Assembly: GCF_051903065.1 (NCBI RefSeq)
Contig: NZ_CP178438.1
DNA length: 64,000 bases
Strand: one strand, 5' to 3'
Source: Escherichia coli
Lineage (GTDB): Bacteria; Pseudomonadota; Gammaproteobacteria; Enterobacterales; Enterobacteriaceae
The notes beneath the pieces were generated by a model that was not told the DNA's origin, searched no databases, and saw only the letters and a list, made by a program, of their open reading frames with translations. A program made the translations under genes and the position numbers. Positions 2,487-18,527 of the stretch are shown here, one piece after another. Every line of letters begins with the position of its first letter. Position 1 is the first letter of the stretch.

Positions 2487-2511
2487 AAAAGGCCGCTATG
2501 CGGCCTTTTTT
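2487..2511. terminator. Bidirectional hairpin terminator between portal gene and convergent cargo gene
   Basis: ggccgc-tat-gcggcc stem-loop flanked by A-run and T-run. Confidence 0.6.
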
Positions 2512-3202
2512 AATTTGCGTCATCATTTTTTTTATTTTCTAAAGACTCAATATACCCTCGCAAATTAAATTCTTTATTTTCTCTGAGTTTAGGTCCTTCT
2601 TTAGTATCTGAGCCTCGTTGCTCACGTAAACTTTTATTCAAAGCATCGATCAATTCTTGTCTAGAGATTTCCGTTGCAATTAACCCATCAAAATATCTCT
2701 TCATTTTTCTCGCGCTCTCGGTTACTTTAACAACTTCAAAACCAAGGCAGAGCAAATAAATTAGCGTTGTTATTGTAAATCCAGTATCTACAGAGATAAA
2801 ATAGCCAATATCGAGCACTTTCTTAAGTGATTCCAAGGGCATAACCATGCACAATAAAACCAAAAGCAAACCAGTGCCAAGATATAAATAAGTCATTGAG
2901 TTTCTTTCAATCAGCTTGAAGTACTCATCTCTCTGACCTTCAAAGCTAGCAACAATCTTAGGGGGTGTTTTTTTTGGAAGATCGAGGTCTCGAATTTTAT
3001 CCTGAAGATCTACGTATCTTTTAATAAGTAAACCGACTATGGCAGCAGTGATTAATGAAAGCGTTTTCGATAAAATATTGCCCATTTCCACGAGCACATT
3101 TAATTTATAATTAATCAGATATACTACACTCGATGCCAATACTCCACTTAAAATGGATAATATTATATAAAACGCATATCGCTCCACTCGATTTTTAATC
3201 AT
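2510..3202 (-). CDS. Hypothetical 4-TM membrane protein (candidate effector of a two-gene cargo cassette)
   Basis: 230-aa ORF with about four hydrophobic helices and a charged C-terminal tail; AT-rich; overlaps upstream gene by 4 bp. Confidence 0.6.
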   Translation of the reverse strand: MIKNRVERYAFYIILSILSGVLASSVVYLINYKLNVLVEMGNILSKTLSLITAAIVGLLIKRYVDLQDKIRDLDLPKKTPPKIVASFEGQRDEYFKLIERNSMTYLYLGTGLLLVLLCMVMPLESLKKVLDIGYFISVDTGFTITTLIYLLCLGFEVVKVTESARKMKRYFDGLIATEISRQELIDALNKSLREQRGSDTKEGPKLRENKEFNLRGYIESLENKKNDDAN

Positions 3203-4188
3203 GGATTTATTACCCCATCAGCTAACAATCTGAGCAACCACTCTACCATTTCCTCACAAACGCTATCAATAACAGGCATCCCATTATTATATTCAATATT
3301 GACGGTGTCTTTTATTTGTATTTCGTCATTTCTTAAAATACCTGCGCCTTTTAACTCTATGGTTAATGCTTCATCACGGTTATCGATAAGAGCCTCCGTA
3401 ATTTTCCTTAAAATATTTTGTTCCTCATCATTAGCTTTATATTTATACCCTATAGAAACATCTATCGTTAAATGTTCTCGAGACATGTCAACTGAAACAT
3501 CCTGTGATGCATTGTGTTTACGCAACACATCAACTCTGTGCTCACCGATAAGAGATTTCAATAATTCACTAGCGACATCATCTACTCCATCTCCATAAGA
3601 GGATAGAGGCAGCTTCAAGCTTACATTTTTTACATTGCTACGCATCAGCAATTCATTAGTCAAACGTAAATTTCCTGCTTGTAATATAATAAAGTTATCA
3701 ACATCAACCCTTAGATTATCCTTCAAAATGTAATTAATATAATTTTCAATATCTTTAATTCTAATTGCACGACTTTGCAATATTATTACATGATTTTTGA
3801 CAATCCCGATATATGCAACACTATCTAAATATTCTTTCGGAACACTTCCAGTAAGCTTTAATGCTTCATAAGCCAATCGATTTTTTTTATATTCTGAAAC
3901 ATCAAAAACTGGCACACTATTCCCTGGCTCAATATAAACTATTTCACCAAAAAATATACCATTCCGTTCGAAGGAATCAGATAAAACCATGTGCGCGTGG
4001 CTGCTAACACAAGGGTCACTATCTCCAGTTTCAAGATAGTAAATTCTGTCCTCAACGGTTGGAAACTTGTGATTAACAATTTCGTTCATACGATTCTGCA
4101 AATCACTTGCTAAAAGAGCATCCTTTTTAGGAAGCATTACTGCGTGTCGATAGTGTAACGCTTTAACTTTTGAGGGATTACTGGCCAT
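3199..4188 (-). CDS. Hypothetical soluble protein (candidate sensor partner of the 4-TM protein); alternative TTG start at 4230
   Basis: ORF 3199..4230 in track; the ATG at 4188 (MASNPSKV) has a GGA 7 nt upstream; AT-rich; no family recognised. Confidence 0.55.
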   Translation of the reverse strand: MASNPSKVKALHYRHAVMLPKKDALLASDLQNRMNEIVNHKFPTVEDRIYYLETGDSDPCVSSHAHMVLSDSFERNGIFFGEIVYIEPGNSVPVFDVSEYKKNRLAYEALKLTGSVPKEYLDSVAYIGIVKNHVIILQSRAIRIKDIENYINYILKDNLRVDVDNFIILQAGNLRLTNELLMRSNVKNVSLKLPLSSYGDGVDDVASELLKSLIGEHRVDVLRKHNASQDVSVDMSREHLTIDVSIGYKYKANDEEQNILRKITEALIDNRDEALTIELKGAGILRNDEIQIKDTVNIEYNNGMPVIDSVCEEMVEWLLRLLADGVINP

Positions 4189-4270
4189 GAAACATCCATT
4201 ATTAATCTTAGATTTAGTGATATGGAACAATCATACAATCTGTTAATTTTTCTTGCCACAACTCCTTTTC

Positions 4271-4300
4271 GCGCGCTCGTATCCCCGCCACGCCTGCCCG
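4271..4300 (-). other. Putative phage cos site (cohesive-end region)
   Basis: Reverse complement reads GGCGTGGCGGGGATACGAG, resembling the P2/186 cohesive-end sequence as recalled from memory. Confidence 0.35.
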
Positions 4301-4498
4301 CTTTATGTAGTGGTTTTCATGCAGGTGCATGATCTACGCAAAAGCCCGCCAGTTCTGGCGGGCCTTAGCAAAAACGATCCTCAAACGATCATGCGATCTC
4401 ATGCGGCATAGACATGCACTACAGAGCTAACGCCTCGCAAGGGCTCGTTGTTCAACCTTGCTGACGCCAGAAACAAGTTCAGACGCCAGCAACGTTTC

Positions 4499-4732
4499 TT
4501 AATGCAGCCAGCTGTCGTCTTCCCACACCTTCTGCATAATTTTCATCACTTGTTTTCTTTCTTCGTCCAGTTGCAGTCCGGTCAGTTCCACACCGTTAGA
4601 GCTACCTTTGCGGATACGAATTACCGTTTTGGGATACAGGGGGCGCAGATTGCGGTAAAGCTCGGATTCAAGGGCGTCCAGTGTAGACTGGCTAATCTTC
4701 TGCTCTTTATCGATCATTATTTCAATGCGCAT
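4499..4732 (-). CDS. DinI-like protein (possibly the C-terminal part of a frameshifted tum-like antirepressor gene)
   Basis: Translation MRIEIMIDKEQ...WEDDSWLH resembles the DinI family; the longer ORF 4499..4804 overlaps the upstream small ORF in another frame. Confidence 0.6.
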   Translation of the reverse strand: MRIEIMIDKEQKISQSTLDALESELYRNLRPLYPKTVIRIRKGSSNGVELTGLQLDEERKQVMKIMQKVWEDDSWLH

Positions 4733-4742
4733 AAAAGTCACC

Positions 4743-4931
4743 TCAGCTGATGACATCCATTGAGCGGTTGTATTCGTGGGTTCTGATTTTTGCCATGAGT
4801 TCATCTGTCAGTTCAGAAACCCACTGCAGAGCCAGCCCCTTCTCTTCATCACTACACTCACTAGCCGCTACAAGCTTAAGAAAAAAATCAATGCGCTGGA
4901 GCTTCAAAGACTCCAAAAAATAGTCCTGCAT
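4743..4931 (-). CDS. Small SOS-regulated ORF (possible N-terminal part of a tum-like gene)
   Basis: 62-aa ORF directly downstream of a LexA box; with the DinI-like ORF spans about 144 codons. Confidence 0.4.
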   Translation of the reverse strand: MQDYFLESLKLQRIDFFLKLVAASECSDEEKGLALQWVSELTDELMAKIRTHEYNRSMDVIS

Positions 4932-4972
4932 CTTTCCTCCTATGACACCAAAGCAATACTGTATATATAATC

Positions 4973-4992
4973 ACTGTTTATATTTACAGTAT
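4973..4992. promoter_or_regulatory. LexA (SOS) box upstream of the tum/DinI-like operon
   Basis: CTGT-N8-ACAG core (ctgtttatatttacag) at 4974..4989 in an AT-rich promoter region, preceded by a CTGT half-site. Confidence 0.6.
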
Positions 4993-5083: not shown

Positions 5084-7498
5084 TTAATACAGGTTTCGCC
5101 ACTTATCATCTTCCTGCAAACGCTGGTTCCGATAGAAGATACGCAGGCCTGCTCCTGACGGAATACTGCCACCGCGAAGGAGTAAATCGACCTCTTTCTC
5201 GCTGCCATCAAATCCTCTGGACTTCAGTTCATAGACGAGCTGCTGTCGCTGATGATCTGTAATTCGCTGTTTGTAGTCTTTACGCCGTTTCGGCTTAACC
5301 AGGCGTAACCTTGCTGCCAGTTCCCGGCGCTCTTTTTTGCTCATACTGTGCAGATAATCGTGCAACTCCTTGTCATCCATGCGGGTAATATCCGTTCTGG
5401 TGTCCCCATCAGCTGATTTATCTTTCTCCTGTTGGTTCAAATTTTCAGCAAGGGGACAGTTATTGCCACGAGTCCAAGGGGCGCAAGCGCCCTGGTCGGC
5501 TACCGCCTCCTGAACGTCAACGGCTTTACGAACCATTTTCCACTTCACTGCATGAGTGCAGATCTTGCCCTCTGCAATGGGTGACCAGATGCCATAAATA
5601 CGAATGCCGTGATCGCCATAGGCGGTCGGCTCTTCGTTAATTTCATAAGCAGTTCTGATGAGGTGATATTTGCGGGGAACCAGTACGCCACCCTGCTTCA
5701 TGATGTAAGTGGCAAAACAACCAGCATCAGCAGCAGCCAGGATGGCATCAAGGCGCGGGTTATCCAGTACCGGCGCACCTGCTTTTTTGTCGCCCTGTTG
5801 CCTTGCCGCCTGACCAGCCAGCAATCGCAGTTCACGGTAAGCCTGACGCCCCGGAATACCAAAGAAGCGGAATTGCTGAACACGATGCAGAGACGCCCAG
5901 GCATTAACGTATTCAGCGTTATCACGCAGGGATTTACCCGTTTCCTTGCTGATCTCGCCAGCCAGACCACGCCCGTCAATGTTCTTACTAATGTATTTCG
6001 CAATGTAGCTTGTCGGCGTTCCTTTGCGCGGGTTTATCAGCTCAGACTTAAAGCGTGGCCCCGTGTTATTGCCCAGCTCCTCGCGGTCTTCACGGATGGC
6101 AAACTTACGCAACAATGCAGTAATGGCGCGGCGGTCTTTTTTGCGCATGAAACACAACAGGTGCCAGTGAACTGTGCCGTCATGATGCGGCTCAGCCACC
6201 CGCACGCCATACCAGCGCAACCCGGCTTTGTGCATAGCCTTACGAAATGCAGCAAACATGCCGACCAGATAATCGCTGCTTTGTCTTACTGTCGCGTTGG
6301 TCCAGGTCGGGTTTGGCCTGCCGTTATTTAGCGTGGAATGGAAACGTGACGGACAGGTGATGGTGTAGAAAACGGCGCAGTCACCACGCATTTCCGCGAT
6401 AAGCTCCAGGCCTTTAACACAGGCCATCATCTCGTTGCGGCGATGCGCCGGGTTGCTGCTGCTGGCGTTTACCACATCCTCCATGTTCAGCGTGTCGCCG
6501 TCTTCGTTCACCAGTTCATGAGAACGGAAAAACTCCAGCGACTTACGGCGCTGCTCACGTTTATGCATCACGGCTTCATAGCTAACATAGGGAGATGCTT
6601 TTTTGCTGACCAGGCAGACAGCACGCAACTGCTCTTCCCGCAATTCGCAACGCATCTTCCATAATTTCCGATACCACCAGTCGGCGCACAGCATACGCGC
6701 CAGCGAACCCGGAATGAGTTCATAAGGCACAGGTTTGCGGCGGTTTCTTTTCCGGCGGAGTTGCTCAAACGCAGGCGGTATGACATCCAGTCGCAGGGTT
6801 TCTGCAGCCACCTTTTCCCATGTCTTGCGGATTTCTTCTGGCTTAACATCATCGGAGGCGTACAAATCACCACAAGCGGCATCAAGACACATGCTCATAT
6901 GCGCAGCGACAAGGGTAGACAGGCGTTTCACCTGATCCTGACTCATTTCAGGCAGGATCAGCAGACCGTCCAGCCCCTCATGGCTTGCCATAAAACGAAA
7001 AGATGCAGATAGCTGGCTGTCGCGTACATGCTCCAGTCGTTCCAGACATGGCTTAATCGTCTCACGCAAATAGCGGGAATAAGCCTTTGGCCTGCCCATG
7101 CTGCTGAAATATTCAATACGTTGCATCAGCGGCTTGCTGATATGGGAAGGCTGGGCGTTGACGTCAGCCAGAATGACCATGTCTGGATTAAAACGCTGCT
7201 GCTCATGCGCCATCTTTGCCCGGCTAATGAGCTTATCCTGCTCCATTTCGCGTTGGACAGGATCACGGGATTCATTAAAGAAATAATGCTCCCAGACCTG
7301 ATCACTCAGTGCCTCGCGGCGCAGTTGTTCCTGCTCGTTATCGGTAGCGTACAGAGTGATCAGGTTTGAAAGCGCAGAAACCGGCGCAACTTCCGCCGGG
7401 TCCAGATAAGGGTTAATGGCCTTTTTCGGGCTGTTCCATGAGAACGCTGCGGCAGCCTCGTTAAAGCCGCAGCAGTTGTTCATATCGGCATGACTCAT
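5084..7498 (-). CDS. Phage replication initiation protein (P2/186 gene A-like rolling-circle endonuclease)
   Basis: 804-aa ORF in the early-operon position of P2-like phages. Confidence 0.75.
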
Positions 7499-8352
7499 GC
7501 ACGTACTCCGTACACGGCAGAACTATCCACGCCACGCGAATAATCAAATCCCACCCAGCAGCGCGGCCCGGAAACAGCAATGATTTCTGTTGCTGATTTA
7601 CCCTCGCCAGCTGCCACACCGATGCTGCGTTTTACCTTGATATAGTGGTGAATAAAATTGCGATACAGCGAACGGATCAGGGATGTGTCACTGTTAGAAA
7701 CAATGACCGGATGTCCTTCTGATGACCGATGTTCAAGAACGGATGCCAGGTGATACTGATCATCTTCAGTGAAACCATCAGTGTGATAGCCGGAAAACGT
7801 ACCGTCATACGGCGGATCGCAATACACCACATCCCCCGCCTTCAACATCGCCAGCGTTTCATCAAAGCTGGCGCAGATAAACGTTGCTCGCTGGGCTTTT
7901 TCTGCAAATGCGCGAATTTCTTTTTCAGGGAAATACGGATTTTTATAATTACCGTAGGGAATGTTGAAATGCCCGCTCTTGTTATAGCGACATAAACCAC
8001 GGTAACCGTGACGATTGAGATACAGGAAATATACCGCTTTCATGAAATCAGTAATTTCAGTTGAGTAATTAAACTCCTGCCTTATGTTGTAATAAGCCAC
8101 CTCCCTGTTTGCGATCTCAAATAAAACTCTGGCGCGAGATATAAACGATTCACAATCAGCAGCAACCTTTTTATAGAGGTTGATTAAATCAGGATTAATA
8201 TCCGCAACAAGATAGCTGGGGTACTCCGTCTCCATCATCACTGCACAGGAACCCGCGAAAGGTTCAACCAGTCGCGGGCCAGCAGGAAGGTGTTTTTTCA
8301 GTTCGGACATAATTGCGGTTTTATTTCCCGCCCATTTCAGGATGGTGCTCAT
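7495..8352 (-). CDS. DNA adenine methyltransferase (Dam-like, phage-encoded orphan MTase); start may lie further upstream at 8412
   Basis: ILKWAGNK N-terminal motif and DPPY catalytic motif in translation. Confidence 0.8.
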
Positions 8353-8576
8353 ACAGCACCTCCGTTGTAATGTTTGCCTTTCAGCTCTGCGATTTCCTGA
8401 CAGGTAATGCAAAGCTGCACTCCAGGAATGGCGCGGCGGCGTGCTGGCGGAATTGGCACTTCACATTCAATGCAAAGCACGCGAGACACGCCCGGTGTTT
8501 TGGCACGGGCAGCACGGATATGGCGCTGGCGTTCTTCTTCAACGCGCTGCTGTACGAGATCCATTGCATCAGCCAT
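8349..8576 (-). CDS. TraR/DksA-family C4 zinc-finger protein
   Basis: 75-aa ORF with CxxC...CxxC spacing (CIECEVPI...CITCQE). Confidence 0.6.
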   Translation of the reverse strand: MADAMDLVQQRVEEERQRHIRAARAKTPGVSRVLCIECEVPIPPARRRAIPGVQLCITCQEIAELKGKHYNGGAV

Positions 8577-8815
8577 TAGTGGATCTCCTGCGCTTCGTTC
8601 TGGATTGCTTCAGCGGTCACACGCAGCAGTTCTGCCGCTTCGACGTGGTTTAGCTGGCGGGATGTGATATGACACGCAAGACTATCAAGGCGGGCAGCCA
8701 TTGCTTCAGCCCTTGCCCGGCGTTCTTCCAGACGAGCCTCTGTCAGTAAAATATTAAGCCCTACGTCATCCGGTCCGGTTTTAGTCGTGAGGGTTTCAAT
8801 ATTACGCATAATCAA
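8576..8815 (-). CDS. Hypothetical prophage early protein
   Basis: 79-aa ORF in operon context, translationally coupled to neighbours. Confidence 0.4.
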   Translation of the reverse strand: MIMRNIETLTTKTGPDDVGLNILLTEARLEERRARAEAMAARLDSLACHITSRQLNHVEAAELLRVTAEAIQNEAQEIH

Positions 8816-8876
8816 TTCTCCTGAATTTAGATAAAGGGATGCCCGGCGGGTTTACGCCATTAATTTCATTAGTTGG

Positions 8877-9218
8877 TTAATTCGGCATGGTTAGCCGTCT
8901 GGGAAATAAGCTCACTACTGCACGAAAATGATTCATTGCTTTAATCAACTCCCGCTTTTCGTCAGTGGTCAGCTCATTAATGCTGATGCTATGACGTTCA
9001 GCTGGAATTTTTGCCATAAAGAATATGGCAGCCAGTGCCCGTTTATTTTGTTCGCTATTAATATCCCGTGGATCACGCATATCTTTAATAAACCGTTCAA
9101 GCTCTGACTCAATATTAAGACCAAAAACTTTCGCCCTTAACTCCGCAATATGATTAAGTCCATTCAGGCGTTCACCGGGGCTTAATGGAACAGTCGCCGC
9201 AGCGCCTTCAATAGCCAT
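8877..9218 (-). CDS. Hypothetical prophage early protein
   Basis: 113-aa ORF in early operon. Confidence 0.4.
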   Translation of the reverse strand: MAIEGAAATVPLSPGERLNGLNHIAELRAKVFGLNIESELERFIKDMRDPRDINSEQNKRALAAIFFMAKIPAERHSISINELTTDEKRELIKAMNHFRAVVSLFPRRLTMPN

Positions 9219-9412
9219 TTGTTCCCCCGTTTTTTCGTAGATAGTTCTGCCAGCAATTCATCTTGTGAACGGCACGGATGCCAGCGTTTACCATCCTCAC
9301 CCATGATCCAGCCGTGACCGTAGTGCATTGCCGGGCTTTGTTTAACCAGCAGCGATGCAAATGATGGTTCTTTCGTAAGCATAAGCACCTCACAGCAAAC
9401 CGAATGAAGCAC
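9182..9412 (-). CDS. Hypothetical prophage early protein
   Basis: 76-aa ORF downstream of the CII-like gene. Confidence 0.35.
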   Translation of the reverse strand: MLHSVCCEVLMLTKEPSFASLLVKQSPAMHYGHGWIMGEDGKRWHPCRSQDELLAELSTKKRGNKWLLKALRRLFH

Positions 9413-9899
9413 CGAGGCCAGTCACGGTATCAACTGCACTCGCCATCGCAGGGTTAGCCTGTAAACGGGCCTGCAGTGAAACAGCAGCCAGCGCCATCAG
9501 TCGTGTTACAGAGTTAATGCTGCTGATAGCATCACGACGACCTGCACTGGTTTTTACATCGCCAGATACCGCACCTGCAGCAACACGCCCGATCTCTGCG
9601 GTTGCACTCATGACGTAATGCGGCAGTTTCTCTTTTGCTACCTCATTAATCGGTACACATGGCAGGCAGTGAATCTGTGCCAGAAAACCATCTATCAGCG
9701 TTGAATCTTCAGTCAGATCGGTAAGCAGCCAGATTTCTGGCGCATTGAGCTGATGCGGTTGATCTGGGTTGAGTTTGTTTCGCAGAGTCTGGACATTCAT
9801 TCCTGCACGTTCTGCCAGCTTCGCCATATTGTGACGAAGTGCAAAAGCTCTACAGGCTTCATCAAAATGCGGGTGTTTGGAAATCTTATAATCAAACAT
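9390..9899 (-). CDS. cII: 186 CII-like transcriptional activator
   Basis: 169-aa translation closely resembles coliphage 186 CII as recalled (MFDYKISKHPHFDEACRAFA...GASFGLL). Confidence 0.7.
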   Translation of the reverse strand: MFDYKISKHPHFDEACRAFALRHNMAKLAERAGMNVQTLRNKLNPDQPHQLNAPEIWLLTDLTEDSTLIDGFLAQIHCLPCVPINEVAKEKLPHYVMSATAEIGRVAAGAVSGDVKTSAGRRDAISSINSVTRLMALAAVSLQARLQANPAMASAVDTVTGLGASFGLL

Positions 9900-9931
9900 G
9901 CTACCCCCTTAGAAAGTTCTCATAATTGAAC

Positions 9932-10174
9932 TCACTTACCAACAATGACGCGGAAGTTGGAATGACCTAGGGATTCACGGACCTGATCGGTTTTGTACAT
10001 TAAATAACGCAGACTTACGCGGCCTTTGTTTTTTTCTTTCTTGACCATGTATTTAGCAAGCTGACCATGGTGAATTTTTTGATACACGGAGCCGCGGGAG
10101 ATACCTTCCCATTCCGCGAACTCTGCTGGCGTAGCCATCTCTTTTGGTACACGAATTGAAATATCAGTGCTCAT
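9932..10174 (-). CDS. Apl/Cox-like excisionase and lytic-switch HTH protein
   Basis: 80-aa HTH ORF first in the early operon, divergent from the repressor gene. Confidence 0.6.
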   Translation of the reverse strand: MSTDISIRVPKEMATPAEFAEWEGISRGSVYQKIHHGQLAKYMVKKEKNKGRVSLRYLMYKTDQVRESLGHSNFRVIVGK

Positions 10175-10233: not shown

Positions 10234-10276
10234 CAATATTTGATACATCGAGATACTACGATCCAATATTTGATAC
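10234..10276. promoter_or_regulatory. Putative operator repeats in the CI/apl divergent promoter region
   Basis: Two copies of CAATATTTGATAC spaced 30 bp apart. Confidence 0.4.
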
Positions 10277-10293
10277 GTCAACAGGATTAAAAA

Positions 10294-10926
10294 ATGATAC
10301 AGGTAAAGGCTGGAGAGAATACAGGGGGAAGAGAGGCTATCCATAGACTAATGGCAGCCTATGATTTCAAGTCCAGACAGCAACTTTGCGATCACTTAGG
10401 CGCATCAAAAAGCACCATGGCAAACAGATACTTAAGAGATAGTTTTCCTGCAGAGTGGGTGATTCAGTGCGCCTTGGAAACAGGAGTTTCTTTACTGTGG
10501 CTAACCACCGGACAGGGAGAGCCAGGTCCAAACATTGAACCTAAAAAAAATATCAATTCCGTGAACTCCAGCAAAGTTGTACCTCTTTCTGAACTAGTAT
10601 CTCCTGAAATTGACAAGGCGACTCTCAACGGTGGTTTATTGGTCGATGCTGGAAAAGCAATCATTGATAGCAGCATACTCCCCTCAGACTCAAGCAACCT
10701 ACTGCTGGTGACTACTTCTGGTGATTCTTATTTAATAGATCGCAACCAAACACCACCAGTAAATGGTATGTGGTTAGTCGATATCGACGGGATAAAAAGC
10801 ATTGTTAAATTGACTCGGCTCCCGGGAAACAAATTAGTAGTGCATCAGGATGATTCATCGTTTGAGTGCGGTCTGGATGACATTGAGGTAGTAGGCCGCG
10901 CACTGAAAATCATTAAGAGCCTTTGA
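10294..10926 (+). CDS. cI: Prophage CI-like immunity repressor
   Basis: 210-aa ORF with N-terminal HTH, located directly upstream of int as in 186. Confidence 0.6.
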   Translation: MIQVKAGENTGGREAIHRLMAAYDFKSRQQLCDHLGASKSTMANRYLRDSFPAEWVIQCALETGVSLLWLTTGQGEPGPNIEPKKNINSVNSSKVVPLSELVSPEIDKATLNGGLLVDAGKAIIDSSILPSDSSNLLLVTTSGDSYLIDRNQTPPVNGMWLVDIDGIKSIVKLTRLPGNKLVVHQDDSSFECGLDDIEVVGRALKIIKSL

Positions 10927-10927
10927 T

Positions 10928-11941
10928 ATGACCATCAGAAAACAGCCGAACGGAAAATGGTTGTGTGAGTGCTATCCCAATGGACGCAATGGCAAGCGCG
11001 TGCGTAAGCAATTTGCTACGAAAGGCGAAGCCATTGCGTTTGAAAGCTTCACAATGGAAGAAGTGAATAAAAAACCGTGGTTGGGTGAAAAGGATGATCG
11101 GCGACGCCTATCAGAATTAATTGAGCTTTGGTATTCCCTGTATGGTCAAACACTCGCAGACCCCAAGCGCCTCATGGCGAAACTTAGAATTATCTGTAAT
11201 GGTCTAGGCGATCCCATCGCCTCAGAACTGACAGCTGGTGACTTTACAAAATACCGCGAAGCACGGTTAAAAGGTGAAATACGAAATGAAGATGGCACGC
11301 TTATGTCGCCCGTTAAGCCCCGCACGGTAAACCTTGAACAGCGCAATCTATCATCTGTGTTCGGTACATTAAAAAAACTAGGACACTGGTCAGCACCAAA
11401 CCCGCTGGCAGGACTTCCGACCTTCAAAATTGCCGAAGGTGAGCTGGCTTTTCTTTCCACAGACGAAATCAAGCGCCTGTTGGCGGCATGTGCTGAATCT
11501 CAAAACCCTAGCTTACTAATGATTGCAAAAATATGCCTAGCTACTGGCGCACGGTGGAGTGAAGCCGAAAATCTGCAGGGCCACCAAATATCGAAATACC
11601 GAATTACTTATACAAAAACAAAAGGCAAGAAAAACAGAACAGTACCCATATCACAGGAGCTGTATGACGAACTCCCAAAGAACAGAGGGAAGTTATTCTC
11701 ACCATGTAGAAAAGCCTTTGAACGAGCAGTAAAACGGGCAGGTATAGATCTACCGGATGGCCAATGCACCCACGTGCTGCGACATACGTTTGCTAGTCAC
11801 TTTATGATGAATGGCGGGAACATACTTGTGCTAAGGGATATTTTGGGACATTCGGATATCAAGATGACCATGGTTTACTCACATTTCTCACCAGATCATC
11901 TTGAAGATGCCGTTACTAAGAACCCATTAAACTTGATATAA
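10928..11941 (+). CDS. int: Tyrosine integrase, P2 family
   Basis: 337 aa; C-terminal HxLRHT...Y catalytic region; resembles P2 Int. Confidence 0.9.
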   Translation: MTIRKQPNGKWLCECYPNGRNGKRVRKQFATKGEAIAFESFTMEEVNKKPWLGEKDDRRRLSELIELWYSLYGQTLADPKRLMAKLRIICNGLGDPIASELTAGDFTKYREARLKGEIRNEDGTLMSPVKPRTVNLEQRNLSSVFGTLKKLGHWSAPNPLAGLPTFKIAEGELAFLSTDEIKRLLAACAESQNPSLLMIAKICLATGARWSEAENLQGHQISKYRITYTKTKGKKNRTVPISQELYDELPKNRGKLFSPCRKAFERAVKRAGIDLPDGQCTHVLRHTFASHFMMNGGNILVLRDILGHSDIKMTMVYSHFSPDHLEDAVTKNPLNLI

Positions 11942-11954
11942 AACAGCCAAAATT

Positions 11955-13712
11955 CTATTTCATCAAGTAATCCAATTCATCCTTCATAGGTATAACTTGC
12001 TCATAAAGTCTATGGTAGGATTTTCCAATTGCGCCCCTAAATTGAATAAGTTTAGGGGAAAAGCTACCGATATTAATAATATGTTCTTGCGCTATACCAG
12101 GATATGGATCGATAAAAATAATCTCTGTCATACCTAACTGATAAGCTTTTTTAGCACAAAGTTCACAAGGGCTAGCTGTAGTATATAGTTTCCCTCCATT
12201 AATACCGACCCCACCATATTTGGCCAATTGCAAAAAAGCATTCTCCTCTGCGTGTAATGCACGGGTATGCACTTGATTCCCTTTCTTTTCATCATCAAGG
12301 CTGTTGTGAATATCTTTAAAACAATATGGCAAATTAAGTCCTTTAAAAACAGTAGAACTTGAATCACTCGCCCTTATTTTTATTAAATTTTCTTTAACTT
12401 TACTCCTAAATTTTGTATTACTTCGTTCGTACAGGCTATATGTTCCCTCATCAAAATCATGCAATAACCCATCAAATGACCTCATAGAACAAGGAACTTG
12501 ACCTTTTGCTACATCGTTCCAACCAACTGACTTGATAGAGTTATCATTATCTGTCACAACCGCCCCTACTTGCCTAGATATACATCCAGAATTTAGTTTT
12601 ACAGTATATGCAACTTGCATAACCCTTTCCATGGCGGTAGGAGATATTAATCCAGGGTGTTGCATTAATGATACATACCACGCAATTTGTGCTTTGAGAA
12701 AATTATTATTATCAAATTCTTTTTTAGGGTTAAAAAAATGTATATCTGAAATTTCAATGCATTTTTTTACATTAGGATTAGTAAGATGATTATACTCGCC
12801 ATCTCCTTTACCAGATTCTTCATCATTAATTTTCTTTATCTGTTCCTCTGAGAACTTATGTAATTTCTTTAAATATCTGGTTCGATGTTCATCTGGTGCA
12901 TTTATAGAAACCAGATGGAATGCAGCATATCTATCTTTGAAGAATTTAGCTTCATACGGGTTACGTATCGCATCAATGACTATATACGCTTTATTATTCT
13001 TTACTTTTCTAATTATTTTAATAACACGATTAATTGTTTCAGGTAAATGAAAAACAGCCTTTGGAATAAAGTCTTGATTTTCATAATCTACATCAACCTT
13101 CCCTATTCTTCTAATTGACTTTCCTGCTGACTGATATAGCTCAATATATAAACCTGGCTCTAGTTCATTTAATTCCCTTTTAAAATCCCGTGTAAATTTT
13201 CGAGTAAGAGTTAATATCCTAATAAAGGTATCTTTCCCCCTGCCTTTAAAGTCAATCTCATCATCATGATTAAGAAGATTTTTTATCACCTCAAGATATT
13301 TTATCTTCAACAAACTTTTAGCGAACACACCATTAACAACCAGTTTCTTGGCTACCTTAAAGGAAATCGAATTTTCTTTTTTATCGGGGATTTTACTTGC
13401 AGAAAACTGAATGAATTTAGCTAAGGCCGATGGAGATAAAAGGAGCAAATATATTGAAATGAGATCACTGACCTTTATCGAATAGAAGTTCTTCCAATGA
13501 GTCTCTGCAAAATTTTTTACTATTTCATAACGCCGCAAATCCAATCCTTTATAATACTCAGCCAAGACGTTACTATCTGGAAAAGATATTTCTTTTTGTT
13601 CTAAAATATTTGCTGCAGTAGTACATCCTGAGCCAGTTCTCCCAGTTAAACCAATAAGAATAAATTGACTATTTTCTAAAAAAAGCTCACTAATAAATTT
13701 GTGTTCTCTCAT
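11955..13712 (-). CDS. P-loop nucleotide-kinase / cytidine-deaminase fusion protein (candidate antiphage dCTP-deaminase-type cargo gene)
   Basis: N-terminal GLTGRTGSGCTT Walker-A-like motif; C-terminal HAEENA...PCELC zinc-deaminase motif; AT-rich; lies between int and attR. Confidence 0.65.
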   Translation of the reverse strand: MREHKFISELFLENSQFILIGLTGRTGSGCTTAANILEQKEISFPDSNVLAEYYKGLDLRRYEIVKNFAETHWKNFYSIKVSDLISIYLLLLSPSALAKFIQFSASKIPDKKENSISFKVAKKLVVNGVFAKSLLKIKYLEVIKNLLNHDDEIDFKGRGKDTFIRILTLTRKFTRDFKRELNELEPGLYIELYQSAGKSIRRIGKVDVDYENQDFIPKAVFHLPETINRVIKIIRKVKNNKAYIVIDAIRNPYEAKFFKDRYAAFHLVSINAPDEHRTRYLKKLHKFSEEQIKKINDEESGKGDGEYNHLTNPNVKKCIEISDIHFFNPKKEFDNNNFLKAQIAWYVSLMQHPGLISPTAMERVMQVAYTVKLNSGCISRQVGAVVTDNDNSIKSVGWNDVAKGQVPCSMRSFDGLLHDFDEGTYSLYERSNTKFRSKVKENLIKIRASDSSSTVFKGLNLPYCFKDIHNSLDDEKKGNQVHTRALHAEENAFLQLAKYGGVGINGGKLYTTASPCELCAKKAYQLGMTEIIFIDPYPGIAQEHIINIGSFSPKLIQFRGAIGKSYHRLYEQVIPMKDELDYLMK

Positions 13713-13934: not shown

Positions 13935-13979
13935 ATGTAGGAATTTCGGACGCGGGTTCAACTCCCGCCAGCTCCACCA
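13935..13979 (+). other. Partial duplicate of ssrA (tmRNA) 3' end: prophage/island attR
   Basis: ATGTAGGAATTTCGGACGCGGGTTCAACTCCCGCCAGCTCCACCA matches the tmRNA 3' terminus (T-arm, acceptor, CCA) with no upstream tmRNA body. Confidence 0.85.
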
Positions 13980-14108
13980 ATCATGATTGGACGGTGTAAA
14001 AACAACACCAACAAAAACAGGAAGTTAGAAGTCTCAGCAGGACACCGACCAGACGGTGAGGAGACATAAAAGGATACGCAAAGGAGCCGCGGCTCCTGGT
14101 GACATGAA

Positions 14109-14139: not shown

Positions 14140-17100
14140 TCAGAACGACCAGTTCACACCAGCCACCGCGTTCCACGGGGATTCCACATCGGCACCGTTG
14201 CTATACCCCACCCCGAGATGCCCGCTTAACGTACTGCTGAATGAGGCTTTAATACCTGCCTGGTATATTTCACGTCTGCCCGACAAATCATTGACGAAAT
14301 TACCGTCATTATTCACCTTCACCCGGTTATCATCGACAAATTCTTTGCGCACAGCCGCCTTCAGCCACGGCTCAACTTCCATACCGTTCCCCAGACGCAT
14401 GTTGTAACTCAGCGTTGCACCCAGTTCACGATATATACTGCGGGTATCGACTGATTTCGATTCCATGCCATTGGATAAATGATATTCAGGGTTATCAGCG
14501 GTGAACCCCGTTAACGATGCATACGGCGTCAGGTTCCAGTTACCATCGGTAAATCGCATCCCGGTTTCAATGTGACCGCCCAGCCCGTTGCTGCGATAAC
14601 TGCCGTTGGCGGCTCCACCGCTGCTCATTTTACCGGCTACGTTACTTTCAAAACGGTTCAGCTTCACGACACCGTCCAGATAAAAACCACTTTCATGTTC
14701 CCAACTGGCATAGCCGCCCAGAGAATAACTGCCCACACTGCCATGTCCTCCGCGATCAAAACCGATATGTGAATGGGAATAGCCCATAAAAGCGCCCAGC
14801 GTGGCAATCCCTTCAGGAATATCATTACGACTGTCGATTCCCACTGTCATTCCGGTCAGCGTCTGCTCAAACCCGGCACCCGCATCGGTGGTGACATTAT
14901 TACGGGTGTTATACGTCGCCCCCCAGACATTATTGTTGTGTGGACTCGCTTTCATTATGTTCAACCGCTCGCGAATACTGTTTAGCTCAGCATCAAATAC
15001 CAACGGTAATGTTGCAGCCATATTGAGTACGGCTGCCGTAGAAGGCGTGATGCGTTTCTCCGGAACGGGTGTCGGCGTTGGATCGGGAGTCGGGTCTGGT
15101 TTCGGATCCGGTTTTGGGTCTGGTTTTGGATCTGGCTTCGGATTTGGGTTGGGATTTGGGTTGGGATCCGGGTTGGGTTTGACATCATTGGTCAGGTTCC
15201 AGTTGCTGTTGCCATCGCTTTTCAGGACATACTCATAGGTCCCAAGATCAACGAAACCGCCAGTATTGCCCAGCGAAAACGAAGCATCCCCTCCCCCTGT
15301 TTTCACCAGCGTCATCGCGTCGTCAGACTGAGGGCTGACGCCGGTATCCTGAACAAAGATTTTAAAATTACCAGTGGCGTTGTTGTTGACGACCAGTTGA
15401 TCGCCCCGGGAGCCAGCAACGTTGGTATGCAGGTAGAAATTACCGCTACCGGAAAGTTCATTGGTTGTCAGCGTATTGTAGATACCGTTAGTTGTGGCAG
15501 GCGCTGCTGTTTGTGCTGATAAATAAACATCACCGTCGTTGAGTAGCAAACTGTTTACTCTATATTCGCAGTTGCTGGTACCTGCACAGGAATTATTGCT
15601 GTTAAGCCAGACACTGCCCCGGCTGGCAGCCGTCAGGTCGGCAAGCGTGGTATCGACGCCATTTCCCAGAGTTAATGTCGCGCTATCGGTAATCCGAACC
15701 GCCCCTTCAAGTTTTACTGGCGTAACATTATCCCGTGGCGTGATTAACGACAGGCTTCCTGTCGCGCCACTGACCGATGCATCCGCCAGCGTACCTGCGT
15801 AGATGATTGCCGTCCCGCCAGCGACCTGGAGATCTTCTGCCCGGGCCAGAGGCTGAAACTCATCTTTTGACCGCCCAAGGGTATATTGCCCGCCAGAGTT
15901 AACCTTTGTAGCGGAGTCCTGACCCAGGTTTTGCATTGCACCACCCTTGCCAACCGTGGAGTCATGGGCTTCGGTACCTGCTAATACCAATAAATTACCA
16001 CCATTTTCCAGCAACATATTGGTCGCTAAATTTCCGGCAATGGAAAAGGTGCCGTACTGGTGAGTACCGCTGATTTCAATACCGTTAGCCGTGCTCGTCT
16101 GGAGAGCGGCACCGCTGTTCTGGACGATATCTGTCGCTTTGCCATTATCGTTGACTGTCAGCGTTCCGCCTTCATTGATCGTTGTTTTTATTGCTTCTCC
16201 GTTAGCTGAAACTGTTTGTATTCCGCCGTCGTTAATTGTTGTCTCATTCGCCACACCCTCGACGATTTGTTCACCGCCGGTGAGCGTCGTGCCTGTCGCA
16301 GTGGCTTTTGTTTTGACGATCTCCCGTCCGCCCGTATTGACCTGTGTTTTGTCAGAAGAGGTGTCTGACTCTACGGTTAACACGCCGCCATTTGCCAGCA
16401 GGATATTGTTCGCCGCACCCTGCTCGATGCTGAACGCGACGCCATCCGCGCGTGTTCCTGTGACCCGCGTCGCCCTGGTGGTTGCAACCAAAGCGCCCTG
16501 CCTACTCTGCTGTATCCCCGTTGCGCTGCCTTTCTCCCACACATCGAGTGTGCCGCCGTCATTAAGCACCGAGTTTTCAGCCAGACCGCCCTCATTAACT
16601 ACCTGTGAACCCCCATTAATAATGGAACCTTCCGCTGTCCCGTTTGCCATAATTTGTTGTAGGCCAGAGACGATATCGGTATTGATTGCCTTACCATAAT
16701 TCTGAACGGTTTGCGTGCCACCATTGATGTGTGTTTTCTCTGTTGACCCACCATCAACAATTTGTTCACCACTTTCGATATTTGCCTCAGTGGCTAATCC
16801 ATATACCGTTTGCTTGCCACCTTTGATATTTGCTTTATCAGAAGTGGCACTGGCATATATTGTTTGGGTGCCAGCACTATTGAGTACAGTGCCAACATCT
16901 TTTCCATAAACATCCATTTTGCCGTTGGCATTAATAATCGTATCAACTGCCCGGGAACCAGTGACGACTGTTAATGAGCCAGCGTTTTCCAGCACTACAT
17001 TTTTAGCTTCTGAATTCCTGATGTAGAAAGCATCACCATAACTGTTGGTTCCTTCGATAAGTGTTCCGGAGGTCGTGGAAGCAATTAATGCGCCGCCGGA

Positions 17101-17470
17101 TTGTTGCTCAACATGCTTAGCCTCACCACCGTCCTGAACCTCCAGAACGCCGCCATTATTAAGTCTGGTGCTATCTGTTTTAGCCTCCTTCTGGACAATC
17201 AGCTTACCGCCAGCATCAATGGTAGTATTTTTCGCCGAGGTTTTAGCCACTACCGTCAGTTCGCCGGTATTTTCCAGCACAACATAATTAGCCTCCCCTC
17301 CGGTAATAGTGAAGTGAGAGAGCTTGTTGTATCCTTCGATATCAGTCCCTGCACCCGTGTTGGCAACTAAAGCACTGCCCGTCTCCTGGTTAACCCCATG
17401 TGCAATACCGCCGGTATAGACAATCAGCGAGCCTCCGGCGCTAATATTGCTGCCAATTGCCGTACCATCT
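14140..17470 (-). pseudogene. ypjA: Autotransporter adhesin (YpjA-like), 5'-truncated by IS903
   Basis: Repetitive passenger domain, PNPDP/KPDP linker, C-terminal beta-barrel ending in WSF; ORF lacks signal peptide and runs into the IS903 end. Confidence 0.7.
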
Positions 17471-18527
17471 GGCTTTGTTGAATAAATCAGATTTCGGGTA
17501 AGTCTCCCCCGTAGCGGGTTGTGTTTTCAGGCAATACGCACGCTTTCAGGCATACCTGCTTTCGTCATTTTGTTCAGCGCTCGTACCAGGGCCATAGCCT
17601 CTGCAACCTGACCATCGTAGTCACGCAGTGTCAGTGAACCCCCGAACAGCTGTTTTACCCGGTACATCGCCGTTTCCGCTATCGAGCGACGGTTGTAATC
17701 TGTTGTCCATTTCCACCGCGCATTACTCCCGGTCATTCGCTGATTAGCCACTGCACGGTTACGGTCTGCATATTCACCGGGCCAGTAACCCGCACCTTTT
17801 CGGGGAGGGATAAGCGCGCTGATTTTCTTACGCCGCAGTTCATCGTGACATAGCCGGGTATCGTAAGCGCCATCGGCGGCGGCTGACCTGATTTTCCGGT
17901 GGGTTTGCCGGATTAACCCGGGGAAGGCCTCTGAGTCCGTAACGTTGTTCAGCGACAGGTCAGCGCAGATGATTTCATGTGTTTTACTGTCAACGGCGAG
18001 ATGCAGCTTACGCCAGATACGGCGGCGTTCCTGGCCATGCTTTTTGACTTTCCACTCGCCTTCACCGAAGACCTTCAGCCCGGTGGAATCAATTACCAGG
18101 TGTGCGATTTCACCCCGGGTGGGCGTTTTGAAACTGACATTAACCGACTTTGCCCGCCTGCTGACACAGCTGTAATCCGGGCAGCGTAGCGGAACGTTCA
18201 TCAGAGAAAAAATGGAATCAATAAAGCCCTGCGCAGCGCGCAGGGTCAGCCTGAATACGCGTTTAATGACCAGCACAGTCGTGATGGCAAGGTCAGAATA
18301 GCGCTGAGGTCTGCCTCGTGAAGAAGGTGTTGCTGACTCATACCAGGCCTGAATAGCTTCATCATCCAGCCAGAAAGTTATGGAGCCACGGTTGATGAGG
18401 GCTTTATTGTAGGTGGGCCAGTTGGTGATTTTGAACTTTTGCTTTGCCACGGAACGGTCTGCGTTGTCGGGAAGATACGTGATCTGATCCTTCAACTCAG
18501 CAAAAGTTCGATTTATTCAACAAAGCC
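17471..18527 (-). mobile_element. IS903-group insertion sequence (IS5 family), complete 1057 bp
   Basis: Terminal inverted repeats GGCTTTGTTGAATAAATC at both ends. Confidence 0.85.
17527..18495 (-). CDS. IS903 transposase
   Basis: 322-aa ORF; translation matches IS903 transposase as recalled. Confidence 0.85.
   Translation of the reverse strand: MKDQITYLPDNADRSVAKQKFKITNWPTYNKALINRGSITFWLDDEAIQAWYESATPSSRGRPQRYSDLAITTVLVIKRVFRLTLRAAQGFIDSIFSLMNVPLRCPDYSCVSRRAKSVNVSFKTPTRGEIAHLVIDSTGLKVFGEGEWKVKKHGQERRRIWRKLHLAVDSKTHEIICADLSLNNVTDSEAFPGLIRQTHRKIRSAAADGAYDTRLCHDELRRKKISALIPPRKGAGYWPGEYADRNRAVANQRMTGSNARWKWTTDYNRRSIAETAMYRVKQLFGGSLTLRDYDGQVAEAMALVRALNKMTKAGMPESVRIA

What the first reader, a model, noticed from the sequence alone, without database searches (positions are those of the whole stretch)
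7495..8576. Prophage-encoded Dam-like orphan methyltransferase next to a TraR/DksA-type zinc-finger gene
An adenine MTase with a DPPY motif and no adjacent restriction partner sits in the early operon, translationally coupled to a small C4 zinc-finger protein. Phage orphan Dam MTases can protect against host restriction or alter host regulation, and TraR-like proteins can act on RNA polymerase.
Basis: partly seen in the sequence, partly recalled or inferred. Interest (0 to 1): 0.3.

Follow-up and report, generated by a model that had tools for sequence, protein, structure and literature searches.

The report
Ordinary P2-family prophage Dam and TraR genes
These are two well-known, routinely annotated accessory genes (a Dam-type DNA adenine methylase and a small TraR-type RNA-polymerase-binding protein) in the early lytic operon of a Fels-2-like prophage, a block found in about a quarter of complete E. 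coli genomes, so the finding is correct but ordinary.

Summary
Window 7495-8352 (-) encodes a 285-aa D12-class Dam-family methyltransferase with a DPPY motif. Window 8349-8576 (-) encodes a 75-aa C4 zinc-finger protein of the TraR family. ATGA overlaps link TraR to dam and dam to replication gene A.

The element is a Felsduovirus (Fels-2/RE2010-type, P2 family) prophage integrated at ssrA in E. coli. The same block is in 1244 of 5426 complete E. coli genomes and 58 phage records, already annotated as here.

The methylase is 47% identical to E. coli Dam. It keeps the catalytic motif and six of seven GATC-contact residues. One difference, Arg for N120, is invariant across 68 distinct phage proteins. 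The gene evolves under purifying selection (dN/dS about 0.14), so GATC specificity is predicted but untested.

The TraR-like protein is 46% identical to P2 Orf82, a published RNA-polymerase binder.

The two genes are not a functional pair. The slot between the TraR-like gene and A is variable: empty, orf83-like, other genes, dam, or dam plus DUF3850. Both genes lie in the repressor-controlled lytic operon, so a lysogen-versus-cured methylome in a dam+ host would be uninformative.

Novelty: already known. Interest: low.

The parts
7495..8352 (-). dam: 285-aa D12-class (alpha-type) Dam-family N6-adenine DNA methyltransferase, orphan
   Evidence: PF02086 1.2e-75. TIGR00571 5e-95, above cutoff. 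47% identity to E. coli Dam, PDB 2G1P E=3.9e-73. 97% identity to the RE2010 'DNA methyltransferase'.
7807..7818 (-). Catalytic motif IV, DPPY (residues 179-182)
   Evidence: Read (GATCCGCCGTAT on the minus strand). Invariant in 68 distinct homologues.
7945..8004 (-). DNA-recognition hairpin region (residues 117-136: Y117 R118 L120 R122 N124 N130 P132 Y136)
   Evidence: Alignment to EcoDam Y119 N120 L122 R124 N126 N132 P134 Y138. Roles of the residues are taken from PMC4417163. All are invariant or nearly so in the homologues.
8359..8363 (-). GGAGG Shine-Dalgarno for dam, inside the end of the TraR-like gene
   Evidence: Sequence; 6-nt spacer to ATG 8352.
8349..8576 (-). 75-aa TraR-family C4 zinc-finger protein (P2 Orf82 / 186 DksA-like homologue)
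   Evidence: PF01258 8.5e-11. TIGR02419 65.6 bits, above the 59.7 cutoff. phrog_54 'DksA-like zinc-finger protein' 4.9e-30. 46% identity to P2 Orf82, 67% to the 186 homologue, 39% to F TraR. PDB TraR 5W1S/6N57 E about 4e-9.
8400..8474 (-). C4 zinc-binding motif (C35, C38, C56, C59) with the PxARR segment (R46, R47 = TraR R48, R49)
   Evidence: Alignment A1. C4 is present in 61 of 61 distinct homologues.
8553..8570 (-). N-terminal tip motif D3-A-M-D6-L-V8 (TraR DxxDxA, with Val for Ala)
   Evidence: D3 and D6 are invariant in 61 distinct homologues; residue 8 varies V/A/I. The motif's role is described in PMC9239242.
5084..7498 (-). Gene A: rolling-circle replication initiator, start overlaps the dam stop (ATGA 7495-7498)
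   Evidence: PF05840 Phage_GPA 2.4e-126. Overlap read. In phage 186, translation of the gene upstream of A is annotated as necessary for translation of A.
8576..8815 (-). DUF2732 gene (P2 Orf80 homologue); its stop overlaps the TraR start (TAATG)
   Evidence: PF10809 7.6e-29. The likely true start is ATG 8807, preceded by GGAG.
8877..10174 (-). Upstream part of the early lytic operon: apl (9932-10174), cII (9390-9899), fil (9182-9412), DUF5347 (8877-9218)
   Evidence: ORFs. Fil PF10893 and DUF5347 PF17282. Synteny with RE2010 and 186. No terminator is predicted in the 8815-8877 gap.
10253..10281 (-). pR-like sigma-70 promoter candidate between cI and apl
   Evidence: TTGACG-17-TAGTAT, 9 of 12 matches. 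Its position matches 186 pR. This is a consensus match only.
10294..11941 (+). cI repressor (10294-10926) and integrase (10928-11941)
   Evidence: ORFs; synteny with 186 and RE2010.
4277..4294 (-). cos core GGCGTGGCGGGGATACGA
   Evidence: Identical to RE2010 and similar to P2 cosR.
13940..13980 (+). 3' end of ssrA (tmRNA) duplicated at the prophage boundary (att)
   Evidence: Sequence ...GGACGCGGGTTCAACTCCCGCCAGCTCCACCA (recognised as the ssrA 3' end from my own knowledge, ARAGORN called no gene). Host DNA from 13935 onward is 100% identical to E. coli strain 23CRST027.

Best explanation
These are two accessory genes of the early lytic operon of a Fels-2/RE2010-type (Felsduovirus, family Peduoviridae) prophage integrated at ssrA in E. 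coli.

**Expression.** Transcription is inferred to start at the CI-repressed pR-type promoter next to apl and to run through cII, fil, DUF5347, DUF2732, the TraR-like gene and dam into replication gene A. Overlapping stop and start codons would couple translation of the last four genes. Both proteins would therefore be made after infection or induction, not in the stable lysogen.

**The 285-aa protein.** It is an active alpha-class Dam-family methyltransferase that most likely methylates the adenine of GATC. It would act on rapidly replicating phage DNA, which outruns the limited host Dam. Progeny genomes would then be packaged fully methylated. That would make them resistant to restriction enzymes that cut unmethylated GATC, and spare them the MutH and SeqA action that targets hemimethylated GATC DNA.

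**The 75-aa protein.** It is a TraR-family factor that inserts into the RNA polymerase secondary channel. Like P2 Orf82, lambda Orf73 and F TraR, it would lower rRNA and ribosomal-protein promoter activity to divert the host towards phage production.

**Relationship between the two.** They are neighbours because of operon layout, not because they form a system. dam is one of several alternative cassettes in a variable slot in front of gene A.

**What is shown and what is inferred.** Shown here: family membership, motif conservation, synteny, overlaps, purifying selection and prevalence. Inferred: GATC specificity, timing of expression, the biological benefit of the methylation, and RNA polymerase binding.
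For: **Identity.**
- dam: PF02086 at 254.9 bits and TIGR00571 at 318.2 bits; 47% identity over the full length to EcoDam structures.
- TraR-like: PF01258 and TIGR02419 above their cutoffs.

**Active, GATC-type enzyme.**
- DPPY is kept, and so are K6, Y117, L120, R122, P132 and Y136. These correspond to EcoDam K9, Y119, L122, R124, P134 and Y138, the GATC base contacts listed in PMC4417163.
- All of these are invariant or nearly so in 68 distinct phage proteins down to 58% identity.
- 98 of 100 ORFs are intact, and median dN/dS is 0.14.

**Lytic-operon placement.** Gene order is identical to RE2010 and parallels the annotated 186 pR operon and the P2 Pe operon. There is a pR-like promoter at 10253-10281 and no terminator in the 8815-8877 gap.

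**Coupling.** ATGA overlaps are seen and conserved. The 186 record notes that translation of the gene before A is needed for A translation.

**TraR function.** The protein is 46% identical to P2 Orf82. [quoted passage not shown] D3, D6, the C4 motif and the R48/R49 equivalents are conserved.

**Not a pair.** The slot census is, the DUF3850 insertion, and P2 and 186 lack dam.

**Prevalence.** 1244 of 5426 complete E. coli genomes and 58 phage records hold the block, with matching annotation.
Against: - No experiment on this clade's methyltransferase was found in the searchable literature, so GATC specificity rests on residue conservation alone.
- EcoDam N120, which contacts the orphaned thymine, is Arg here, and R137 is Asn. 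Both are lineage-invariant differences of unknown effect.
- The hosts (E. coli, Klebsiella, Salmonella) are dam+, so the selective benefit of a second GATC methylase is not demonstrated.
- GATC is neither avoided nor enriched in the prophage: 3.93 per kb against 4.02 per kb in host DNA.
- The TraR tip motif is DxxDxV rather than DxxDxA. The authors suggested the same kind of deviation in P2 Orf82 might lower activity.
- The promoter assignment is a consensus match only.
Confidence: 0.85

Rival explanations
1. Lysogenic-conversion epigenetics: the prophage Dam is expressed in the lysogen and changes host methylation and gene regulation.
For: This is a general precedent for prophage methyltransferases affecting host phenotype, for example the titles and abstracts listed. 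The gene is intact and under purifying selection.
Against: The gene lies inside the lytic operon downstream of the CI-controlled promoter, with no promoter of its own on its strand. Its predicted specificity duplicates host Dam, which already methylates nearly all GATC sites.
Confidence: 0.05
2. Self-regulation or packaging control: the phage Dam methylates a GATC cluster beside cos (window 4331, 4376, 4387, 4395), by analogy with P1 pac, to license terminase action or local transcription.
For: Four GATC sites lie within 37-105 bp of the cos core, one of only two such clusters in the 64 kb. P2 and 186, which lack dam, have none in the corresponding 200-290 bp. At the level of 90%-identity flank clusters, 30 of 34 dam+ clusters have at least 2 GATC, against 9 of 24 dam- clusters (Fisher p about 1e-4).
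Against: The association follows backbone lineage, not the gene. Fels-type backbones without dam keep the GCATGATC..GATC pair (L093, L114, L123, L162). 186-type backbones with dam have 0-1 GATC (L109, L117, L154). The clusters are not phylogenetically independent, and host Dam could methylate these sites anyway.
Confidence: 0.07
3. Altered or relaxed specificity: the enzyme methylates something other than, or more than, GATC because of the lineage-specific Arg at the EcoDam N120 position, Asn at R137, and a 22-aa C-terminal tail.
For: R118 and N135 differ from EcoDam and are fixed in the clade. The score is below the NF008152 chromosomal-Dam equivalog cutoff, 287 bits against 441. No determined recognition site for this clade was found in the literature searched.
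Against: The residues that read base pairs 1, 3 and 4 of GATC are all conserved. The N120 position is already variable among proven GATC enzymes: it is Ser in T4 Dam.
Confidence: 0.08
4. The methyltransferase is half of a restriction-modification or other defence system.
For: Several PADLOC Type II MTase models match it. The prophage carries defence cargo elsewhere, such as the dCTP deaminase at 11955-13712.
Against: No endonuclease-like gene is adjacent, and all neighbours are identified. The best PADLOC model is 'orphan methyltransferase'. Neighbours vary among relatives while dam stays.
Confidence: 0.01

Closest known systems
Dam of Felsduovirus phages (Salmonella phage RE2010 gp10, Escherichia phage Cartapus 'Dam DNA adenine methylase', Klebsiella phages KP12 and 4LV2017)
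   Same: 97% protein identity to RE2010 gp10. The position between the DksA-like zinc-finger gene and gene A is identical, as are the overlaps.
   Different: Nothing material. These are the same gene in sister phages, and none has a published activity assay that I could find.
E. coli chromosomal Dam (EcoDam, PDB 2G1P/4RTJ)
   Same: Same D12-class fold family, 47% identity across the full length. DPPY and the GATC contacts K9, Y119, L122, R124, P134 and Y138 are conserved.
   Different: It scores below the NF008152 equivalog cutoff. N120 is Arg and R137 is Asn, and there is a 22-aa C-terminal extension. It is phage-borne and in a lytic operon rather than the damX-dam-rpe locus.
Phage orphan Dam enzymes T4 Dam and the Dam domain of P1 Dmt
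   Same: Phage-encoded GATC-type adenine methyltransferases without a restriction partner. Identity is 23% to T4 Dam and 38% to P1 Dmt.
   Different: The virus families and genomic contexts differ. P1 Dmt is a fusion protein, and P1's link to pac cleavage is not supported here.
Haemophilus phage HP1 Dam (orf13)
   Same: Same virus family (Peduoviridae), same early operon, cited as a cloned phage Dam-like gene (cited in PMC7556043); its GATC specificity is from my own knowledge.
   Different: It is an unrelated protein family: PF05869, 173 aa, no significant similarity, and it lies downstream of rep. It is a functional analogue, not a homologue.
P2 Orf82, phage 186 DksA-like protein, lambda Orf73, F-plasmid TraR
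   Same: Same TraR family with similar length (73-75 aa in F TraR, P2 Orf82, the 186 homologue and here). D3, D6, the C4 zinc motif and the R48/R49 equivalents are conserved. The position after the DUF2732 gene in the early operon is the same. Identity is 46% to P2 Orf82, 67% to the 186 homologue and 39% to TraR.
   Different: The tip motif is DxxDxV rather than DxxDxA (P2 has Ile, 186 has Ala). This particular protein has not been tested.

Membership tests
Dam family N6-adenine DNA methyltransferase (Pfam PF02086 D12 class / TIGR00571) | Full-length match to the family models above the curated cutoffs | tested here: met
   PF02086 254.9 bits against 22. TIGR00571 318.2 bits against 114.85, covering residues 1-260.
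Dam family N6-adenine DNA methyltransferase (Pfam PF02086 D12 class / TIGR00571) | Catalytic motif IV (D/N)PPY and AdoMet-binding motif I (FxGxG-like) | tested here: met
   D179-P-P-Y182 and E30-P-F-A-G34 align to EcoDam DPPY and EPFVG. DPPY is invariant in 68 homologues.
Dam family N6-adenine DNA methyltransferase (Pfam PF02086 D12 class / TIGR00571) | GATC-reading residues of EcoDam (K9, Y119, N120, L122, R124, P134, Y138) | tested here: met
   Six of seven are identical: K6, Y117, L120, R122, P132, Y136. N120 is R118, a position that is Ser in T4 Dam.
Dam family N6-adenine DNA methyltransferase (Pfam PF02086 D12 class / TIGR00571) | Methylation of the adenine in GATC | not testable with these tools
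   This needs expression in a dam-null host followed by DpnI/MboI digestion or SMRT/nanopore motif calling.
Chromosomal (housekeeping) Dam equivalog NF008152 | Score at or above the equivalog cutoff of 441 bits, and the damX-dam-rpe locus | tested here: not met
   The score is 287.2 bits. The gene sits in a prophage early operon, not at the K-12 dam locus. It is a phage paralogue, not the housekeeping orthologue.
Type II restriction-modification system | A cognate restriction endonuclease gene adjacent to the methyltransferase | tested here: not met
   The neighbours are gpA, TraR-like, DUF2732, DUF5347, Fil and CII. The best PADLOC model is oMTase.
TraR family (TIGR02419; Pfam PF01258 zf-dskA_traR) | Model match above the curated cutoffs and TraR-like length without the DksA coiled coil | tested here: met
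   TIGR02419 65.6 bits against 59.7, residues 3-64. PF01258 42.1 bits against 24.9. The protein is 75 aa.
TraR family (TIGR02419; Pfam PF01258 zf-dskA_traR) | C4 zinc-binding motif and the R48/R49 equivalents that contact the RNA polymerase rim helices and beta' Si3 | tested here: met
   C35, C38, C56, C59 and R46, R47. C4 is present in 61 of 61 homologues. The roles are described in PMC9239242.
TraR family (TIGR02419; Pfam PF01258 zf-dskA_traR) | N-terminal DxxDxA tip motif | tested here: inconclusive
   D3 and D6 are present and invariant, but Ala is replaced by Val8. P2 Orf82 has Ile and is still active, though weaker.
TraR family (TIGR02419; Pfam PF01258 zf-dskA_traR) | Direct binding to RNA polymerase and ppGpp-independent inhibition of rRNA promoters | not testable with these tools
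   This has been shown for P2 Orf82 (46% identical) and four other homologues in PMC9239242, but not for this protein.
Felsduovirus / 186-type early lytic operon | Gene order cI | apl-cII-fil-(DUF5347)-DUF2732-TraR-like-[variable slot]-A, followed by a Tum/DinI-like gene and cos | tested here: met
   Colinear with RE2010 at 96.5% DNA identity and parallel to the 186 map. The cos core is identical to RE2010.

The most novel reading that the evidence does not exclude
The P2-family phage Dam clade carries three fixed differences from EcoDam: an invariant Arg where EcoDam has N120 (the orphan-thymine contact), Asn where EcoDam has R137, and a 22-aa C-terminal tail. This clade could have kinetic or specificity properties distinct from host Dam. 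Examples would be relaxed flanking or first-base discrimination, or efficient de novo methylation of rolling-circle products. Such properties would give the phage something the host enzyme cannot. I found no published recognition-site determination for this clade.
Probability: 0.1. Interest if true: 0.3.

Novelty: already known. Interest (0 to 1): 0.1.

Why it matters
It matters little as a discovery. The genes are annotated identically in reference phages and in roughly 23% of complete E. coli genomes.

The residual value is practical. This very common prophage methylase has, as far as I could find, never been assayed. The biological reason why phages of dam+ hosts carry their own Dam remains open in general; PMC7556043 states that the function of phage Dam enzymes is still not well understood. 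The slot census also shows that the position in front of gene A is a small cassette-exchange site in the P2 family.

Tried and rejected
1. **TTG start at 8412 (305-aa ORF).** Rejected in favour of ATG 8352, on homology, the Shine-Dalgarno sequence and the RE2010 annotation.

2. **GATC avoidance or enrichment in the prophage.** None was found: observed/expected is 0.85-1.02, the same as host DNA.

3. **A link between the phage dam gene and a GATC cluster beside cos, as in P1 pac.** There is a raw association, but it tracks backbone lineage, with exceptions in both directions. Not supported as specific.

4. **EC958 M.EcoMIV** (a prophage D12 methylase reported as transcribed significantly below dam in LB culture and predicted inactive, PMC4659465) **as the same enzyme.** Rejected. 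It lies on a Mu-like prophage and is 24% identical. Two earlier fetches of EC958 missed it.

5. **HP1 Dam as an orthologue.** Rejected. It is an unrelated PF05869 protein downstream of rep.

6. **A terminator equivalent to 186 tR1 between DUF5347 and DUF2732.** None was predicted (z = -0.03).

7. **Literature searches for activity data on Fels-2-type Dam**. Nothing specific was found.

8. **A scan of viral contigs with gpA as the query**. It returned only 97-99% identical relatives. Diversity came instead from a scan with the cos-core pattern.
Full report
**Observation**

The stated interval holds exactly two minus-strand genes.

- The methyltransferase CDS runs 8352 to 7495 (285 aa). The longer TTG-initiated ORF in the mechanical list is an artefact. 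Similarity to Dam begins at Met-Ser-Thr-Ile-Leu-Lys-Trp-Ala-Gly, a GGAGG sits 6 nt upstream (8359-8363), and the RE2010 orthologue is annotated at 285 aa.
- The zinc-finger CDS runs 8576 to 8349 (75 aa).
- Reading directly, DUF2732 and TraR overlap as TAATG (8574-8578). TraR and dam overlap as ATGA (8349-8352). dam and gene A overlap as ATGA (7495-7498).
- DPPY is residues 179-182 (bases 7807-7818).

**What the element is**

The surrounding genes on the same strand are apl, cII, fil, DUF5347, DUF2732, the TraR-like gene, dam and gene A (PF05840, 2.4e-126). cI and int diverge from them on the plus strand.

The 1.6-kb block is 96-97% identical to Salmonella phage RE2010 (genus Felsduovirus, family Peduoviridae), Escherichia phage Cartapus and many Klebsiella phages. 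All are annotated 'DNA adenine methylase / DksA-like zinc-finger protein / replication endonuclease'. It occurs in 1244 of 5426 complete E. coli genomes, almost always once, with the same RefSeq annotation.

The cos core GGCGTGGCGGGGATACGA lies at 4294-4277. The prophage ends at a duplicated 3' end of ssrA at about 13940-13980. From 13935 the DNA is 100% identical to an E. coli chromosome. The window therefore contains the right-hand third of a Fels-2-type prophage integrated at ssrA in E. coli.

**The methyltransferase**

It matches PF02086 (254.9 bits) and TIGR00571 'dam' (318.2 bits against a 114.85 cutoff). It falls below the chromosomal-Dam equivalog cutoff (287 against 441), so it is a Dam-family paralogue rather than the housekeeping enzyme. 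It is 47% identical to E. coli Dam over the whole length (E = 4e-73 to PDB 2G1P) and 23% identical to T4 Dam.

I used the base contacts described for EcoDam in PMC4417163:

- R124 reads Gua4.
- L122 and P134 read the third base pair.
- Y119 intercalates.
- N120 bonds the orphaned thymine.
- K9 and Y138 read the first base pair.

The phage enzyme keeps K6, Y117, L120, R122, P132 and Y136. N120 is replaced by R118, a position that is Ser in T4 Dam.

From about 200 related P2-family loci I recovered 100 dam ORFs. Of these, 98 are intact and 70 are distinct proteins, with identity to the window down to 58% among the 68 full-length proteins aligned. DPPY and all the contact residues, including R118, are invariant or nearly so. 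Median dN/dS against the window copy is 0.14.

It gives no sign of an inactive or non-GATC enzyme. GATC specificity nevertheless remains a prediction, because I found no assay of this clade in the literature available.

**The TraR-like protein**

It passes the curated cutoffs of PF01258 and of TIGR02419 ('phage/conjugal plasmid C4 zinc finger protein, TraR family'). It hits the TraR cryo-EM and crystal chains at about 4e-9.

It is 46% identical to P2 Orf82, 67% to the phage 186 homologue and 39% to F TraR. D3, D6, the four cysteines and the R48/R49 equivalents are all conserved. D3, D6 and the four cysteines are also invariant in all 61 distinct homologues.

Gopalkrishnan et al. (PMC9239242) showed that P2 Orf82 and four other homologues:

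- bind RNA polymerase,
- inhibit rRNA and ribosomal-protein promoters without ppGpp,
- complement a dksA-null strain.

The tip motif here is DxxDxV rather than DxxDxA. P2 Orf82 has Ile at that place, and the authors suggest this may reduce activity.

**Are the two genes a unit? No.**

P2 has orf83 between its TraR-like gene and A. Phage 186 has three other genes there, and neither phage has dam.

I examined 127 related loci in which both the TraR-like gene and A were seen. The sample is biased towards Fels-type relatives.

| Distance from TraR-like gene to A | Loci | dam present |
|---|---|---|
| about 0 bp | 10 | no |
| about 50 bp | 2 | no |
| about 250 bp (orf83 type) | 7 | no |
| 300-1300 bp | 10 | no |
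| about 850 bp (dam alone) | 80 | yes |
| about 1150 bp | 15 | yes |
| 1650-2150 bp | 3 | yes |

In most of the 1150-bp class a roughly 100-aa DUF3850-type gene sits between TraR and dam. In others, extra genes sit between dam and A.

The dam gene is thus one alternative cassette in a variable slot. What is conserved is the overlap architecture: ATGA at the dam start in 95 of 98 loci, and A/GTGA at the dam stop in nearly all. The 186 record notes that translation to the end of the gene preceding A appears necessary for A translation. Any cassette inserted here probably has to preserve that coupling.

**How it most likely works**

By synteny with the annotated 186 pR and P2 Pe operons, these genes are transcribed only when CI repression is lifted. 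A pR-like promoter candidate lies at 10253-10281, and no terminator is predicted before DUF2732.

The enzyme would then methylate GATC on rapidly replicating phage DNA. The usual rationale, from general knowledge of T-even and P1 Dam, has three parts:

- Host Dam is limiting during phage replication.
- Full methylation protects progeny from restriction enzymes that cut unmethylated GATC.
- Full methylation avoids MutH and SeqA action on hemimethylated or unmethylated DNA.

This step is inferred. GATC frequency gives no independent support, at 3.93 per kb in the prophage against 4.02 per kb in the host.

Because the host is dam+ and the gene is in the repressed operon, the proposed lysogen-versus-cured methylome comparison would probably show nothing. 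Expression in a dam-null background is the decisive assay.

**A lead followed and set aside**

Four GATC sites cluster 37-105 bp from cos (4331, 4376, 4387, 4395), as in RE2010. P2 and 186 have none there.

Across 58 flank clusters at 90% identity, 30 of 34 dam+ clusters have at least 2 GATC, against 9 of 24 dam- clusters. However, the sites are part of a longer conserved motif, GCATGATCGTTTGAGGATCG. That motif is retained in Fels-type backbones lacking dam (L093, L114, L123, L162). It is absent from 186-type backbones that carry dam (L109, L117, L154). The association reflects shared ancestry, so I do not claim a P1-pac-like mechanism.

**Comparison with known systems and verdict**

- The closest relatives are the identically annotated Felsduovirus genes.
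- The closest characterised enzymes are EcoDam, P1 Dmt (38%) and T4 Dam.
- HP1, in the same virus family, carries an unrelated PF05869 'Dam' downstream of rep, which is an independent acquisition.
- The ST131 prophage methylase M.EcoMIV is a different gene on a Mu-like prophage.

The finding is a correct reading of an ordinary, already-annotated gene pair. Novelty: already known. Interest: about 0.1.

The only open points are the untested specificity of this very common enzyme and the general, long-standing question of why phages of dam+ hosts carry Dam.

Noticed in passing
window 11955-13712 (-): A 585-aa anti-phage dCTP deaminase sits as cargo between the integrase and the ssrA-derived att site. 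It scores 420.5 bits on NF041025, above the 400 cutoff, and 2e-146 on the PADLOC dCTPase model. RE2010 has a different 'hypothetical protein' at that position.
   Followed up: partly
window 2510-4230 (-): Two overlapping genes (343 aa, then 230 aa) lie between cos and the portal gene. Neither has a Pfam, NCBIfam or PADLOC match; the larger hits only phrog_3482 'unknown function'. RE2010 carries an AIPR 'prevents superinfection' gene at the same spot, so this is a candidate uncharacterised defence cargo.
   Followed up: partly
window 4277-4400: The cos core lies at 4277-4294, with a conserved flank of GCATG/TGCAT repeats, a GC-rich hairpin (about 4340-4370) and four GATC sites (4331, 4376, 4387, 4395). 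The GATC pair tracks the Fels-type backbone rather than the presence of dam.
   Followed up: yes
window 4499-4990: A DinI/Tum-like gene (4499-4804, PF06183) lies downstream of gene A. It is preceded by a LexA-box-like palindrome, CTGTTTATATTTACAG, at 4974-4989. This resembles the SOS-controlled p95-tum module of phage 186, which suggests SOS-inducible antirepression.
   Followed up: no
window 14140-18495: The host adhesin-like autotransporter gene ypjA adjoins an IS903B (IS5-like) transposase (17527-18495) and an IS1A. A second local cluster of four GATC sites lies at about 15071-15180, inside ypjA.
   Followed up: no
loci L177, L022, L006 and others; also E. coli hits H26 and H32-H35: In about 15% of dam+ relatives a roughly 100-aa DUF3850-type gene (a P2 Orf91-like domain) is inserted between the TraR-like gene and dam. 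It also has overlapping stop and start codons. This shows small-cassette turnover inside the early operon.
   Followed up: partly
L208 (phage HP1) 9166-9687; L207 (E. coli EC958) 36787-37551: Two other phage 'Dam' genes are unrelated or distant. HP1 orf13 belongs to PF05869. EC958 M.EcoMIV is a 254-aa D12-class enzyme on a Mu-like prophage, only 24% identical. Adenine methylases therefore appear to have been acquired repeatedly by temperate phages of Enterobacteria and Haemophilus.
   Followed up: yes
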